The position numbers and the translations under genes are program-made. Under the pieces are notes generated by a model. The model ran no database searches and was not told the DNA's origin. It worked only from the letters and a program-made list of their open reading frames with translations. A stretch of DNA of 64,000 nt from positions 30,237 through 94,236 of the forward strand of contig JAPFQF010000036.1 in NCBI GenBank assembly GCA_029255365.1, read 5' to 3'. Positions 22,248-26,827 of the stretch are shown in pieces (the first letter of the stretch is position 1; every line of letters starts with the position of its first letter). The DNA comes from Nitrosopumilus sp. (GTDB lineage Archaea > Thermoproteota > Nitrososphaeria > Nitrososphaerales > Nitrosopumilaceae).

Positions 22248-22633
22248 TCACCTGATTTATGGCAAACAACCAAAATTGATTGTAAAAAAATAATGTCCTT
22301 GCGCAAGTGTCTGTTGGGATAATTTCTTACTTGGATGGAATTTCTGGATCACTCATTTTGATTTTAACCTGCAATGCCTCGGATTATAGTAATTTAATGA
22401 TTCAAACGAATCTGGAAAGATGTACGCCAAATGTTGATTAGATTCAAATCTCCAACACGCTTAAGTTCAAAATATGTCTCGCTCTCATTTCAAAAGTGAC
22501 TTTTTGTATCAATTATGCACTAAATAGGCAAAAATTTGGAATGACCTGATGGCAATCTATTTTGAGAATGGAGCCACATGCAGCGTATGTCATTGGAAAT
22601 ATTGCCGTGACTAGGACAAACATGATTGTTGGA

Positions 22634-23179
22634 TTACTTTTTTTTAATCAATAAAGTGTGCTGTATCTCCTGTAAGCTGCTGATGAATTTCTGTTTTGCC
22701 TCAAATTCATCCTTGACTGCTATGACTATTTCGGTCGGTGATAACATGACATCTTTAACGACAAGTGGGGAACTTAGACCTAGTATCTCACATAACATCT
22801 CAAAAACATTTTTGAACTGAGAGTCTCCCCTGTATTTGTAAACAGTCTTGCCATCAATTATTTTTGGATAACTTTCAAGAGGTATTATCAAGTTTGGCGA
22901 ACTGAATTCAGAGATAAAAGTATCGATATCTTTAGAGATGGACGATTTAAGATCTGCTTTGGTTCGCTCTGACTGCTCTTTCATTCTTTGAAGATCTGCC
23001 ATCTTGTCATCATATCCGACACCAGTTATTTTTGCAAATGTAGATTCAGTTGCCCGTTTTAATGGAATTTCGTGGAGTTGTACGTTCACACTAGACAGTG
23101 AATCCTCAATTTCGTGCAGTTTTACTCTGTTCTCCTTTATCTGAACTGCAATGCTTTCTAGATTCTCAAAGTCAGACAT
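22634..23179 (-). CDS. Hypothetical protein, N-terminal coiled coil; operon partner of the tubulin-like ORF
   Basis: 181 aa, ATG 4 nt after upstream stop. Confidence 0.75.
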   Translation of the reverse strand: MSDFENLESIAVQIKENRVKLHEIEDSLSSVNVQLHEIPLKRATESTFAKITGVGYDDKMADLQRMKEQSERTKADLKSSISKDIDTFISEFSSPNLIIPLESYPKIIDGKTVYKYRGDSQFKNVFEMLCEILGLSSPLVVKDVMLSPTEIVIAVKDEFEAKQKFISSLQEIQHTLLIKKK

Positions 23180-23183
23180 GTCT

Positions 23184-23969
23184 TTAGCTGAATTGATGTA
23201 CTACATCCATTAGGCCTTGTTTAAATTCCTCAGTTGAAAGTCCCCATTTGCCATATTCCTCTTTGTACCCGTCCCATGATTCTTCAGCTTCTTTTGCAAT
23301 CTCGAGAATTTTAGGTCCAATTGCCTTGGTGTTGATCAATGCCGCAATGCTTGCCTGTTCCCCCTCTATTATTGGAATTTTTACAAAGATCATTCTTGAT
23401 TCCTCAATGTTGAATTTGTCCTTGATGATTCTTTTGATCGCCTCGCGTTCTTTGATATCAAATTCACCTTTTACTTTGACTAGTACGCAACAAGAATCTC
23501 TGGAACTGCCATTGTTCCTGATGTCATTTTCATCAATGTCAAAAAGCAAGCCATCTTCTTTTTTGCCAATTTTATTCAAAAGATCTTCCATAGTGTTATT
23601 CTTGGTTGATGTAAGCATGTCCCTTCCCCACTGGTTTTCAGATGGACTTACAGGCATTATCCAAGGAATGGCAAATTTTGGTTTTTTAGTTGCAAGCCAT
23701 GTGCGATAATTAGACATGTCCCATTCGGTTTCTCTTGCAAACGATGAGATGAACATGGAGATGGTATTTGCAGCAATCAAGTTCATTCCCTTGTAGTCTT
23801 TCCATCCGACCTCGTGTTCTTTTCGAAGATCATCTATTATGGATGGAATTTTTTGTAACTTTTTTTCATGTTGGTGTGAGATTGCCTTTTCATGGATTGT
23901 CGCTGTCCATGGTGGCACTGCACTCGCAATCAAATATAGTGCATGATTGACCTGTTTGACGGTACGCAA
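23184..23969 (-). CDS. Divergent tubulin-like protein, N-terminally truncated (lacks GGGTGSG loop); possibly a pseudogene
   Basis: YKGMN, DMSNYRTWL, FAIPWIMPV, CCVLVKVKGE, LINTKAI and YGKWGLSTEEF align collinearly with alpha-tubulin by eye. Confidence 0.65.
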   Translation of the reverse strand: MRTVKQVNHALYLIASAVPPWTATIHEKAISHQHEKKLQKIPSIIDDLRKEHEVGWKDYKGMNLIAANTISMFISSFARETEWDMSNYRTWLATKKPKFAIPWIMPVSPSENQWGRDMLTSTKNNTMEDLLNKIGKKEDGLLFDIDENDIRNNGSSRDSCCVLVKVKGEFDIKEREAIKRIIKDKFNIEESRMIFVKIPIIEGEQASIAALINTKAIGPKILEIAKEAEESWDGYKEEYGKWGLSTEEFKQGLMDVVHQFS

Positions 23970-24012
23970 TGCCTTGATTTTTATCTCAGCAAAATTTTTT
24001 TGAAATATTCAA

Positions 24013-25098
24013 ATGGAAATATTGCAACTAATACAATCTAATTTACTCACGCCGATAATCCTCTTTTTCCTATTTGGAATTATTGCGGCTAGAATAAAGT
24101 CTGATCTGAAAATCCCTGAAGCGATTTCAGAATTCTTGCCAATCTATCTTCTTGCAGCAATAGGCCTTCATGGTGGAATTGAGATGAGAAATACTGGATT
24201 TGAAAACATGTTGATTCCAATGTTAGTTGCAATTGGATTATCCTTGCTAATGACATTAAACCACTATCAAATTTTACGTAGATTGGGCAAATTCAATATT
24301 TTTGATTCATATGCGTTAGCATCAACATATGGCGCTGTAGGGGCTGTCACATTTTCAGTTGGTCTGTCATTTTTGAAGAATCAGGGGGTGACATCTGAAG
24401 GATATCTTGCAGCAATTTTGGCTGTTCTAGAACCTGTTGCTTTCATTTTAGCAATATTTTTGACAAACATGGCAGTTTCAAAACAAATTCGTCAGAAAAA
24501 AAAATCATTCACTAAAGGTGATGACTCTGATCTTAATATGGGCATTCAAGAAACAAAAACAAACCTTTCTCAAGTTTTACATGAATCCGTAACTGGCAAG
24601 GCAATAGTTATTCTTCTTGGAAGTATTGTAATAGGTTATATCATTGGCGAATCTGGATTTGATTCTATCAAAATAGTATTTGATGAAATGTTTACTGGAG
24701 CAATTGTAATTTTTATGATTGAGATGGGAATAATCGCCGGTCAAAGATTAGGTGATATTAAAAAAGTTGGAATTTTCCTTATAGCGTTTGCTGTAATCAT
24801 GCCAACTTTCAATGGTATAGTGGGAGTATTGGTTGCTACGGCCATGGGTTTGAGCCTGGGTGGAGCGGTAATGTTTGGATTACTATTGGCAAGCGCTTCG
24901 TTTATCGCAGCACCGGCAGTTTTACGCCATGCAATTCCGCAAGCAAATCCTAGTCTTTACATTACATCTGCTTTAGGAATTACATTCCCATACAACATTA
25001 TTGTTTTACTTCCAATCATGTTTTCAATTTCGACAATCGTTCATACTGGAGAAGGATCGATAGACTTATTCAATTACATCACAAAGGGTTGGATATGA
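24013..25098 (+). CDS. sbtA: Sodium-dependent bicarbonate transporter SbtA family permease
   Basis: KSDLKIP, YLLAAIGLHGG, YGAVGAVTF, EMGIIAG, ASASFIAAPA, LGITFPYNI motifs. Confidence 0.9.
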   Translation: MEILQLIQSNLLTPIILFFLFGIIAARIKSDLKIPEAISEFLPIYLLAAIGLHGGIEMRNTGFENMLIPMLVAIGLSLLMTLNHYQILRRLGKFNIFDSYALASTYGAVGAVTFSVGLSFLKNQGVTSEGYLAAILAVLEPVAFILAIFLTNMAVSKQIRQKKKSFTKGDDSDLNMGIQETKTNLSQVLHESVTGKAIVILLGSIVIGYIIGESGFDSIKIVFDEMFTGAIVIFMIEMGIIAGQRLGDIKKVGIFLIAFAVIMPTFNGIVGVLVATAMGLSLGGAVMFGLLLASASFIAAPAVLRHAIPQANPSLYITSALGITFPYNIIVLLPIMFSISTIVHTGEGSIDLFNYITKGWI

Positions 25099-25397
25099 AA
25101 CTCTACACTGTAAAATTACTAACTATTACTTGTGAGATTCTTGCCCAAAAAAATATTATTAAAATTTTAAACAAACATGAAATTAATGCCTATACAACTT
25201 ATGAAGTAGGTGGGAATGGTGCACGTGGAATTCGTGGTCAAGGACTTGAAAATGAAAAAAATGTCAAAGTTGAAGTTATATTGCGTGAGGAAAAATTACA
25301 AGATGTGGTTGAAGAAATCTCCAGAACAATGTTTGCTAATTTTACTATAATTGTATATGTTAGTGATGTTAGTGTAGTCAGAACTGAAAAATTCTAA
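25095..25397 (+). CDS. sbtB: P-II-like SbtB protein
   Basis: KLLTITCE, YT...GNGARG, NVKVEVI, VVRTEKF; overlaps sbtA stop. Confidence 0.85.
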   Translation: MKLYTVKLLTITCEILAQKNIIKILNKHEINAYTTYEVGGNGARGIRGQGLENEKNVKVEVILREEKLQDVVEEISRTMFANFTIIVYVSDVSVVRTEKF

Positions 25398-25693
25398 CAA
25401 CATTTATCGTCTGAACATAAGACTGGAATTTTTTTACTAGTTTTTGTAACGTTTGATATTAATTCTGACAATTGTTTGTTTGATATTGCATACATTGCTT
25501 TTTTCCCCTCATCCCTTGATTTGACAATCCCACATTTTTTCAATGTCTTTAGATGGTGGGAGACTAACGGTTGATCTTTTTTTAATTTTTTAACAAAATC
25601 ATTTACACAGAGTTCTTTATCTTTTTGTAACAATTCTAAAATTTCAAAACGTGTTTCATCACAAATGCATTTTAACAGACTGACTCCATTCAT
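25394..25693 (-). CDS. arsR: ArsR/SmtB family repressor
   Basis: DETRFEIL, ELCVND, QPLVSHHLKTLKKCGIV, C-terminal CC. Confidence 0.88.
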   Translation of the reverse strand: MNGVSLLKCICDETRFEILELLQKDKELCVNDFVKKLKKDQPLVSHHLKTLKKCGIVKSRDEGKKAMYAISNKQLSELISNVTKTSKKIPVLCSDDKCC

Positions 25694-25714
25694 ATCAATT
25701 TAAGTTTATATGAA
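25689..25714. promoter_or_regulatory. Candidate ArsR operator
   Basis: TTCATAT-N12-ATATGAA inverted repeat in the arsR/arsC divergent region. Confidence 0.5.
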
Positions 25715-25739
25715 CCAATATTTATGTTATATCACAGAT

Positions 25740-26141
25740 ATGTCTGAAAATGTACTGTTTGTGTGCGTAGAAAATGCAGGCAGGAGCCAAATGGCTGAAG
25801 CCTTTTTTAGAAAATATGCGCCTGTTCGATTCAACGTTTTCAGCGCTGGTACTACACCATCATCACAACTAAATCCGATTGTCATTCAGGTAATGAAAGA
25901 AATTGGTATAGATATGACAAATCAACACCCTAAGATGTTATCCCACTCAATGATTGAGAACTCTTCTAAAACTGTTAACATGGGATGCATGGATAGAGAA
26001 TCATGTCCTTCTTTGTTTGTAAAGGATGTACTTGATTGGAATATTTCTGATCCAAAAGAAAAATCTCTTGATGAAGTAAGAGAAATCCGTGATAAAATAA
26101 AATCTGAAGTAATGAATCTCATCAAAACTCTTGAGGCATGA
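25740..26141 (+). CDS. arsC: Arsenate reductase (LMW-PTP fold)
   Basis: FVCVENAGRSQMAE, GCMDRESCP, DP. Confidence 0.9.
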   Translation: MSENVLFVCVENAGRSQMAEAFFRKYAPVRFNVFSAGTTPSSQLNPIVIQVMKEIGIDMTNQHPKMLSHSMIENSSKTVNMGCMDRESCPSLFVKDVLDWNISDPKEKSLDEVREIRDKIKSEVMNLIKTLEA

Positions 26142-26146
26142 CGTAA

Positions 26147-26827
26147 ATGACATATTCTAATTTACAAATTTTTACAGTTGAACTAATTGGAACCTTTGTT
26201 CTTGTAATATTTGCAACTGGTTCTATTGTTTATGATGCTGAATTTTTGGATGGTCAATTGGGAATTCCCTTTGCAGCACTGGCTCCTTTTATTGCATTGC
26301 TCATCGGTGTCTATTCTTTCGGAAAAATATCTTTGGCGCATTTTAATCCTGCAGTTACTATTGGTTACTATATTACAGGACATATCTCAAAAATTCAAAT
26401 TGTGTATTATTTTGCAGCAGAAATAATTGGTGCAGTATTAGGTTCTCTTTTTGTACTGATGTTCATTGGAGACAAGGCAAATCTAGGTGCAAATGCTCCT
26501 AATTATGATTTTTCAATTTTTTTAATTTTTTCAGTTGAGGTTTTAGCTTCTGCAATGTTGATGGGTGTAATATTTTATGTCGTGTATACAAAAGGCCTAA
26601 GAGGATTTAGCGGTGTTGCAATAGGTGGAATCGTTGGATTGGATATTCTCTTTTTGGCTTTTATCTCTGGAGCCTCTATGAATCCAGCTAGGGCATTAGC
26701 TCCTGCATTGTTATCTGGCACGTTTGAAAATTTATGGTTATACTGGACTGCTCCATTTGTTGGGACTATGATCGTTGCTTTTTTGTTTAGAGGGAAATTT
26801 CGGGCACAAAGAAAGGGGGAATCATAG
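26147..26827 (+). CDS. MIP family channel (aquaporin/aquaglyceroporin, probable arsenite channel)
   Basis: HFNPAVT and SMNPARAL NPA boxes; downstream of arsC. Confidence 0.9.
   Translation: MTYSNLQIFTVELIGTFVLVIFATGSIVYDAEFLDGQLGIPFAALAPFIALLIGVYSFGKISLAHFNPAVTIGYYITGHISKIQIVYYFAAEIIGAVLGSLFVLMFIGDKANLGANAPNYDFSIFLIFSVEVLASAMLMGVIFYVVYTKGLRGFSGVAIGGIVGLDILFLAFISGASMNPARALAPALLSGTFENLWLYWTAPFVGTMIVAFLFRGKFRAQRKGES

What the first reader, a model, noticed from the sequence alone, without database searches (positions are those of the whole stretch)
23184..24011. Highly divergent, 5'-truncated tubulin-like gene with eukaryote-type C-terminal helices
Seen: the 261-aa ORF aligns collinearly by eye with the C-terminal ~60% of alpha-tubulin. 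Y59KGMN63 matches Y224xxxN228 (guanine contacts). D84MSNYRTWL matches DLTEFQTNL (T7 loop/H8). FAIPWIMPV matches FPLATYAPV. SCCVLVKVKGE matches ACCLLYRGD. LINTKAI matches LSNTTAI. YGKWGLSTEEFKQGLMD matches YVGEGMEEGEFSEARED (H11-H12). Known: these H11/H12 helices characterise eukaryote-like tubulins rather than FtsZ, and eukaryote-like archaeal tubulins are rare (artubulins of Nitrosarchaeum, OdinTubulin). Seen: the N-terminal GTP-binding half with GGGTG(S/T)G is absent. The frame stays open only to a stop at 24009-24011, 2 nt from the divergent sbtA ATG, leaving almost no promoter space. Inference: a remnant of an artubulin-like or new tubulin family cut by a rearrangement, or a naturally GTPase-less tubulin that could cap or inhibit filaments.
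Basis: partly seen in the sequence, partly recalled or inferred. Interest (0 to 1): 0.88.

Follow-up and report, generated by a model that had tools for sequence, protein, structure and literature searches.

The report
Broken back half of known artubulin
This is the back half of an already described archaeal tubulin relative (artubulin), joined directly to a scrap of an unrelated gene where its GTP-binding half and likely promoter used to be, so it is most likely a recently broken, silent gene rather than a new kind of tubulin.

Summary
The tubulin call is right; the novelty is not. Window 23187-23876 (minus) encodes residues 232-461 of a conserved 461-aa family, 93-97% identical to intact copies. 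In Nitrosarchaeum records this family sits in the gene neighbourhood published for artubulin. The first ~31 codons of the '261-aa ORF' are not tubulin: they are the antisense of a decayed phosphate-transporter (pit) 3' end. The junction lies in a 9-11 nt overlap at 23868/70-23878. Contigs of two runs bridge it, and a ~98%-identical sister population reads on into intact artubulin. The GTPase half and its upstream motif are not in the assembly (86% complete). Of 109 artubulin-positive genomes among 301 searched, only this one and G026 lack the front half, and they break at different residues (232, 293). Best reading: a recent microhomology deletion leaving a pseudogene, in a genus where 6 of 151 genomes keep the cassette. 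A working GTPase-less tubulin is not excluded (frame intact) but has no positive support. The scan already reported artubulin and its 181-aa partner gene on other DNA.

The parts
23184..23876 (-). 3' half of artubulin (family residues 232-461, 230 codons plus stop); frame intact
   Evidence: tblastn 93% to P0002 over residues 228-461; 97% to L163; Foldseek to beta-tubulin E 3.8e-6
23868..23878 (.). Junction: 9 nt (23870-23878), or 11 nt with the X9-type right side, that fit both parent sequences
   Evidence: X5/X7 left contig ends at 23878 and continues as intact artubulin, right contig begins at 23870; X9 begins at 23868; blastn of intact loci stops at 23876-23879, pit-side loci start at 23881
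23879..23967 (+). Decayed 3' end of a pit (PHO4) phosphate-transporter gene; its antisense supplies the first ~31 codons of the called ORF
   Evidence: 80% DNA match to the end of the gene before sbtA in L018/L019; that gene is PHO4, E 4.9e-87; tblastn to pit residues 301-321, 33-38%, E 0.013-0.057
23968..24012 (+). Conserved upstream element of sbtA (likely promoter/leader); not part of the tubulin gene
   Evidence: Near-identical in all 10 relative loci printed, including ones without pit upstream; promoter role inferred
22634..23179 (-). Intact 181-aa partner gene, 4 nt after the artubulin stop; helical hairpin plus small alpha/beta domain, no known family
   Evidence: Directly follows artubulin in 151 of 152 loci with room; model pLDDT 92.7; no Pfam, Foldseek or clear VIA match
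24013..25098 (+). sbtA bicarbonate transporter (neighbour, intact)
   Evidence: Pfam Sbt_1 E 3.8e-105

Best explanation
The ORF is the 3' half of a thaumarchaeal artubulin gene, cut at residue 232 and joined to the decayed end of a phosphate-transporter gene, most likely by a recent deletion through a 9-11 nt microhomology, and it is likely a silent pseudogene. Shown: identity of the remnant, position and overlap of the junction, an intact allele in a sister population, and absence of the GTPase half and upstream motif from the assembly. Inferred: the ancestor read NHL gene -> [partner <- artubulin] ... pit -> sbtA; one event removed the divergent 5' ends of both artubulin and pit with the promoters between them. 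With no GTP-binding domain, no native start and no native promoter, the remnant would neither be made normally nor polymerise, and it survives intact only because the event is young. It would be one step in the loss of the artubulin-partner cassette from this genus.
For: 93% identity to residues 228-461 of P0002 and no N-half hit anywhere in G000. Nested in the Nitrosarchaeum-type clade. Junction defined from both sides. X5 and X7 (one study) continue past 23878 with bases that read as the intact artubulin codons seen in L163/L033 and differ at only 6 of 429 sites. A 16-nt motif found upstream of 21 of 22 close intact copies has no match in G000 at <=2 mismatches. pit residues 1-172 and the DUF47 orthologue are not found in G000 either, as a deletion predicts and a reciprocal rearrangement would not. 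Only 2 of 109 artubulin-positive genomes lack the front half; the other, G026, lost 1324 bp across its own divergent promoter through a ~10-nt match and breaks at residue 293. The cassette is rare in the genus: partner in 6 of 151. The single amino-acid difference from the sister (P49R) hits a residue invariant in 84 of 84 homologues.
Against: The remnant has no stop or frameshift, and its lineage shows strong purifying selection (37 synonymous versus 2 non-synonymous codon changes on its branch, dN/dS 0.013-0.026; 5:1 against the sister). Most of that branch may predate the deletion, but the data cannot separate 'young' from 'kept'. The partner gene is also intact. G000 is 86% complete, so absence of the N-half is not proven. 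No expression data were examined. All four runs holding the whole junction stretch belong to one study and may be the source of the assembly; the exact junction was not found in the JGI metagenome collection (0 hits).
Confidence: 0.84

Rival explanations
1. The remnant is expressed from a new start (TTG 23969, GTG 23918 or an internal ATG) off the divergent face of the sbtA promoter and works as a GTPase-less tubulin half that binds its partner protein, or the read-through mainly keeps the partner gene expressed.
For: Frame open to 24011; no decay; partner intact in both front-less genomes; gene callers list the product on several contigs (P0001, P0126).
Against: Sister population has the intact gene; the two natural truncations break at different residues and the second loses the H7/T7/H8 region as well; no intact artubulin is found in G000 for it to cap; the isolated half is modelled poorly (pLDDT 53.8); the partner is never found without artubulin or its remnant in 151 genus genomes; the added N-terminus is antisense pit DNA.
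Confidence: 0.06
2. The junction arose by recombination with DNA of another strain (homologous exchange on the sbtA side, microhomology on the artubulin side) or by a rearrangement that left the N-half in an unassembled part of the genome; the gene is broken either way.
For: Differences from X5 are uneven: 29 of 1357 in the cassette, 32 of 833 in the NHL gene, 38 of 517 in sbtA, 14 of 138 in the pit scrap; run X9 matches the right side better (17 of 383) and extends the overlap to 11 nt. G000 is 86% complete.
Against: X5 holds several sbtA variants, so contigs cannot be assigned to one strain; no reciprocal piece (artubulin N-half, pit N-half, upstream motif) is in the assembly.
Confidence: 0.07
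3. The truncation is an assembly chimera.
For: Only one study holds the whole stretch and its runs may be the source; no hit in the JGI collection; only contigs, not raw reads, were laid.
Against: X1 record 5 spans 22503-26500 with 0 differences at depth 44.7 and X3 record 13 spans 22503-23991 at depth 81.1; none of the 6 records laid for X1 ends at the junction; four samples hold all sampled words; a 9-11 nt overlap is shorter than the 31-letter words of these contigs.
Confidence: 0.03

Closest known systems
Artubulin of Nitrosoarchaeum (Nitrosarchaeum) limnia / koreensis (Yutin and Koonin 2012, PMC3349469; also Ca. Nitrosotenuis uzonensis, PMC3835317)
   Same: 93-97% identical over the retained half to copies in records titled Nitrosarchaeum/Nitrosopumilus; those Nitrosarchaeum loci show the published neighbours (triosephosphate isomerase-like, DNA polymerase-like, dCMP deaminase, Snf7, MFS-like); about 79% identity to Nitrosotenuis copies, as PMC3835317 reports; a separate ordinary FtsZ in the same genome.
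   Different: Lacks residues 1-231 (whole GTPase domain), start and upstream motif; no Snf7 beside it; lies between an NHL-repeat gene and the sbtA cluster.
Eukaryotic alpha/beta/gamma-tubulin and Asgard AtubA/B, OdinTubulin
   Same: Best PDB sequence matches of the full-length family (24rt E 7e-18, AtubA E 1e-16, gamma-tubulin E 7e-14); best Foldseek matches of the remnant model are beta-tubulins.
   Different: 11-15% identity in the retained half; no sequence-level match of the C-terminal half. Placement of artubulins is disputed in print: with tubulins (PMC9871819), with TubZ (PMC4202323), unresolved long branch (PMC13394414).
Thaumarchaeal FtsZ (Nitrosopumilus type)
   Same: Same superfamily; databases often label artubulins 'cell division protein FtsZ' or 'tubulin gamma'.
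   Different: G000 has its own 316-aa FtsZ-type gene on C51 with no significant BLASTP match to P0002 (E >= 0.6).
CetZ / TubZ / BtubA
   Same: VIA-align top rows for the remnant model: CetZ Z 6.7 (rmsd 5.1, 117 aligned), FtsZ 6.3, TubZ 5.5, AtubA/B2 5.5, BtubA 5.4.
   Different: These rows are tied or nearly so and under Z 8; they show the superfamily C-terminal fold, not a subfamily.

Membership tests
Artubulin | Close sequence relationship to the Nitrosarchaeum tubulin homologues | tested here: met
   93% to P0002, whose cluster members are named from Nitrosarchaeum sp.; nested in a 23-row clade, SH-aLRT 99, quick tree. The two type sequences themselves were not retrieved; the link to them is by neighbourhood and identity.
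Artubulin | Family closer to eukaryotic tubulins (gamma among the best hits) than to FtsZ | tested here: met
   For full-length relatives the best 60 PDB sequences shown are all Asgard or eukaryotic tubulins; not testable by sequence on the remnant alone.
Artubulin | Published neighbourhood: next to Snf7, beside dCMP deaminase | tested here: not met
   Not met in the window (no Snf7 nearby; three Snf7-like genes lie on C30 and C49). Met in 15 related loci. PMC3835317 reports an artubulin without adjacent Snf7, so this is not family-wide.
Artubulin / tubulin-FtsZ superfamily (functional member) | N-terminal GTPase domain with GGGTGS signature | tested here: not met
   Motifs absent from the ORF, present in L033; no N-half in G000.
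Tubulin-FtsZ superfamily | C-terminal activation-domain fold | tested here: met
   Foldseek beta-tubulin E 3.8e-6, TM-score by query only 0.32; VIA-align ranks 1-7 all superfamily members, Z 5.4-6.7; low-confidence model.
Eukaryote-type tubulin | H11-H12 helices packed on the C-terminal domain | tested here: inconclusive
   Two helices predicted at 220-240 and 246-260, pLDDT 44-67; not included in the VIA superpositions on tubulins.
Tubulin-FtsZ superfamily (functional member) | GTP-dependent polymerisation | not testable with these tools
Naturally GTPase-less tubulin family (proposed) | Same truncation conserved across lineages with its own start | tested here: not met
   2 of 109 genomes, different breakpoints; 0 of 160 fetched loci 5'-truncated with room upstream (those scans kept only the best 80 of 89 and 80 of 179, which disfavours truncated copies); the 262-aa P0120 is a frameshifted full gene.
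ESCRT-III / Snf7 (for the 181-aa partner) | Snf7 profile match or ESCRT-III fold | tested here: inconclusive
   0 of 99 members match Snf7 at E<=0.01; top VIA row is the CHMP4B hairpin (Z 7.2, rmsd 1.7, 78 aligned) but tied with unrelated hairpins.

The most novel reading that the evidence does not exclude
Twice in this genus the artubulin GTPase half was deleted while the C-terminal part and the partner gene stayed intact because the pair still does something without GTP: a natural GTPase-less tubulin fragment working with its partner protein.
Probability: 0.05. Interest if true: 0.65.

Novelty: new member of a known kind. Interest (0 to 1): 0.15.

Why it matters
Little as it stands: it is a broken copy of a family named in 2012. 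It adds two small facts. Artubulin looks dispensable in this genus (cassette in 6 of 151 genomes, 2 of the 6 front-less through separate microhomology deletions), unlike several sister genera where nearly all searched genomes have it (40/42, 28/29, 7/7). And a natural knockout with a ~98%-identical intact sister exists, which could help find the phenotype of a protein whose function is untested in the papers I read. If the fragment proved to be made and kept, it would be a tubulin working without its GTPase domain, which would be surprising.

Tried and rejected
Sequence searches of the ORF against Pfam and PDB: nothing significant. First guess that it is the ordinary thaumarchaeal FtsZ: rejected, only 5 of 61 genus genomes match and FtsZ is a separate gene. 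P0120 (262 aa, 48%) as a natural short form: rejected, L101 has both halves in two frames and L102-L107 are full length. C-terminal profile against 1.84 billion representatives: only 9 hits; of the 5 read, one is full length and four are fragments or chimeras, so no wider domain family. Exact junction pattern in JGI metagenomes: 0 hits; uninformative beyond rarity. Sigma-70 promoter scan: 7 sites versus 7.5 by chance, wrong model for archaea. Partner fold: Foldseek no match at E<=0.001, VIA best Z 7.2 among tied hairpins with only residues 1-99 well tested, Atlas best score 0.77; no family assigned. Complex prediction of artubulin with its partner was not available, so binding is untested. The careful tree did not finish; the quick tree was used (80 rows; most metagenome loci left out). 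Literature: searches 'Nitrosopumilus+FtsZ+tubulin+Thaumarchaeota', 'artubulin', 'artubulin+pseudogene' listed no paper on a truncated artubulin; subscription papers and supplements were not seen.

Full report
Observation. By sequence alone it matches nothing in Pfam or the PDB. A homologue search found 130 relatives, mostly 447-478 aa, carrying Pfam Tubulin and labelled 'FtsZ' or 'tubulin gamma'; nearly all of the longer ones cover only 85% of the query. tblastn of full-length relatives against the whole genome G000 gives one hit, residues 228-461 at 93% for P0002, and nothing for residues 1-227. The GTPase motifs are absent from the ORF and present in an intact relative. So the tubulin-family call and the 5' truncation are real.

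What family. Full-length relatives have Pfam Tubulin over residues ~12-232 and their best PDB matches are Asgard tubulins and gamma-tubulin. In records titled Nitrosarchaeum the gene follows a dCMP deaminase and a Snf7 gene (Pfam) with polymerase-, triosephosphate-isomerase- and MFS-like genes around it (named by eye from the sequences). That is the neighbourhood given for artubulin by Yutin and Koonin (PMC3349469; I read parts 1-2 of 5). Copies from Nitrosotenuis records are 77-80% identical to P0002, matching the ~79% in PMC3835317 (passages). In a quick tree of 80 C-terminal halves the remnant sits inside the 23-row Nitrosarchaeum-type clade (SH-aLRT 99) with an end branch of 0.019, 97% identical to L163. 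G000 has a separate FtsZ-type gene and three Snf7-like genes elsewhere. The host is a Nitrosopumilaceae member, probably Nitrosopumilus (inferred from relatives' titles and the size of the genus, 151 genomes; the genus size comparison is recalled). A model of the ORF is weak (pLDDT 53.8) but finds beta-tubulin first in Foldseek (E 3.8e-6) and superfamily members in the first seven VIA rows. Whether artubulins belong with tubulins or TubZ is disputed in print (passages of PMC9871819, PMC4202323, PMC13394414).

The break. DNA similarity to intact artubulin loci ends at 23876-23879; similarity to the sequence upstream of sbtA in L018/L019 begins at 23881. That sequence is the 3' end of a pit phosphate transporter (PHO4), here decayed. 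So the first ~31 codons of the called ORF are antisense pit DNA and the rest of the open frame is the antisense of sbtA's conserved upstream element, which is near-identical in the 10 relative loci printed. An open antisense stretch of that length is common enough (172 of 1905). Runs X5 and X7 (one freshwater study) carry a sister population with the same NHL-partner-artubulin order; its contig differs at 6 of 429 sites, leaves the window at 23878 and continues with intact artubulin codons, while a second contig joins the window at 23870 from other sequence (compared). The 9 nt between fit both parents; with run X9 the overlap is 11 nt. The junction is bridged by contigs of X1 (0 differences over 22503-26500) and X3, and four samples of that study hold all sampled words. 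These may be the source of the assembly, so they argue against mis-assembly but are not independent occurrences; the junction pattern was not found in JGI metagenomes. Missing from G000 along with the N-half are a 16-nt motif that precedes 21 of 22 close intact copies, pit residues 1-172 and the DUF47 orthologue. G000 is 86% complete, so these absences are not proof.

Is a front-less artubulin a kind? No. Among 301 family genomes 109 match; apart from G000 only G026 (99% complete) has a 3' piece with no 5' piece; the other partial rows are contig ends, two-contig splits or one frameshift. G026 lost 1324 bp between artubulin and its divergent upstream gene, again through a ~10-nt match, and breaks at residue 293. 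None of 160 fetched loci is 5'-truncated with room upstream (best-scoring loci only). The 262-aa P0120 is one half of a frameshifted gene. In the genus the partner gene is in 6 of 151 genomes, always with artubulin or its remnant, against 40 of 42, 28 of 29 and 7 of 7 for artubulin in three other genera.

Evidence against decay. The remnant has no stop or frameshift. Its branch carries 37 synonymous and 2 non-synonymous codon changes, dN/dS is 0.013-0.026 to eight relatives, and the G026 remnant gives 0.031. Against the sister the count is 5 synonymous to 1 non-synonymous, the latter P49R at a column invariant in 84 of 84 homologues. This fits a young deletion, since most changes would predate it, but it does not exclude retention. 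Rare residues are no more numerous than in the intact P0002 (11 versus 12). No expression data were examined.

Mechanism. Most likely (0.84): one deletion through the microhomology removed the divergent 5' ends of artubulin and pit with their promoters, leaving a silent remnant and an orphaned partner; it is a stage in loss of the cassette. The identity, junction, sister allele and absences are shown; the ancestral order, recency and silence are inferred. Rivals: recombination with another strain or a rearrangement with the N-half unassembled (0.07; divergence from X5 is uneven across the junction), an expressed GTPase-less half (0.06), an assembly chimera (0.03).

The partner. The 181-aa gene 4 nt downstream follows artubulin in 151 of 152 loci with room, whereas Snf7 is adjacent in 15 loci only. 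It models well (pLDDT 92.7: long helical hairpin plus a small alpha/beta domain) and has no family. Binding to artubulin is untested. Four earlier notes of this scan report the same pairing on other genomes; I had found it independently.

Verdict. A real but ordinary thing: a recently broken copy of a known, functionally untested family. Interest 0.15.

Noticed in passing
window 22634-23179 (minus): Intact 181-aa gene that directly follows artubulin in 151 of 152 loci with room; confident model (hairpin plus alpha/beta domain), no known family. A better candidate partner than the Snf7 gene proposed in 2012.
   Followed up: partly
L005:1492-2007 (G026:C16): A second, independent front-less artubulin (from residue 293) made by a 1324-bp deletion through a ~10-nt match that also cut the divergent upstream gene; partner intact.
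   Followed up: yes
G000:C49:68007-68497 (L183, L184): Another pit remnant right behind the biotin-synthase-like gene: only residues ~173-328, with a frameshift; no intact pit was found in the assembly.
   Followed up: partly
window 22318-22640: Intergenic stretch with short dispersed repeats (about 22437-22472 and 22488-22536) that recur on other G000 contigs and in relatives; the sister population has 372 other bases in place of 22333-22521. Unexplained; it may mark the insertion edge of the cassette.
   Followed up: no
window 23870-24510: The pit scrap and sbtA differ from run X5 by 7-10%, the cassette by 2%; run X9 matches this side better. Possible recombination at the junction.
   Followed up: partly
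L101:4453-5786; L102-L108; L138; P0149: Deeply divergent artubulins (53-57% identity). L101 is frameshifted, which explains the 262-aa database protein P0120; L102-L108 keep a ~30%-identical partner; none was detected after L138.
   Followed up: partly
P0109 (407 aa), P0148, P0150: Database proteins in which artubulin pieces are fused to the partner or to unrelated sequence; single records, possibly assembly errors or other breakages.
   Followed up: no
L054: A contig titled as a gammaproteobacterium carries a Nitrosotenuis-type artubulin and neighbourhood; probably mis-binned.
   Followed up: no
window 24013-26827: sbtA, P-II-type sbtB, then (named by eye) arsR-, arsC- and aquaporin-like genes: a cluster conserved in most genus genomes, usually behind DUF47-pit.
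   Followed up: no
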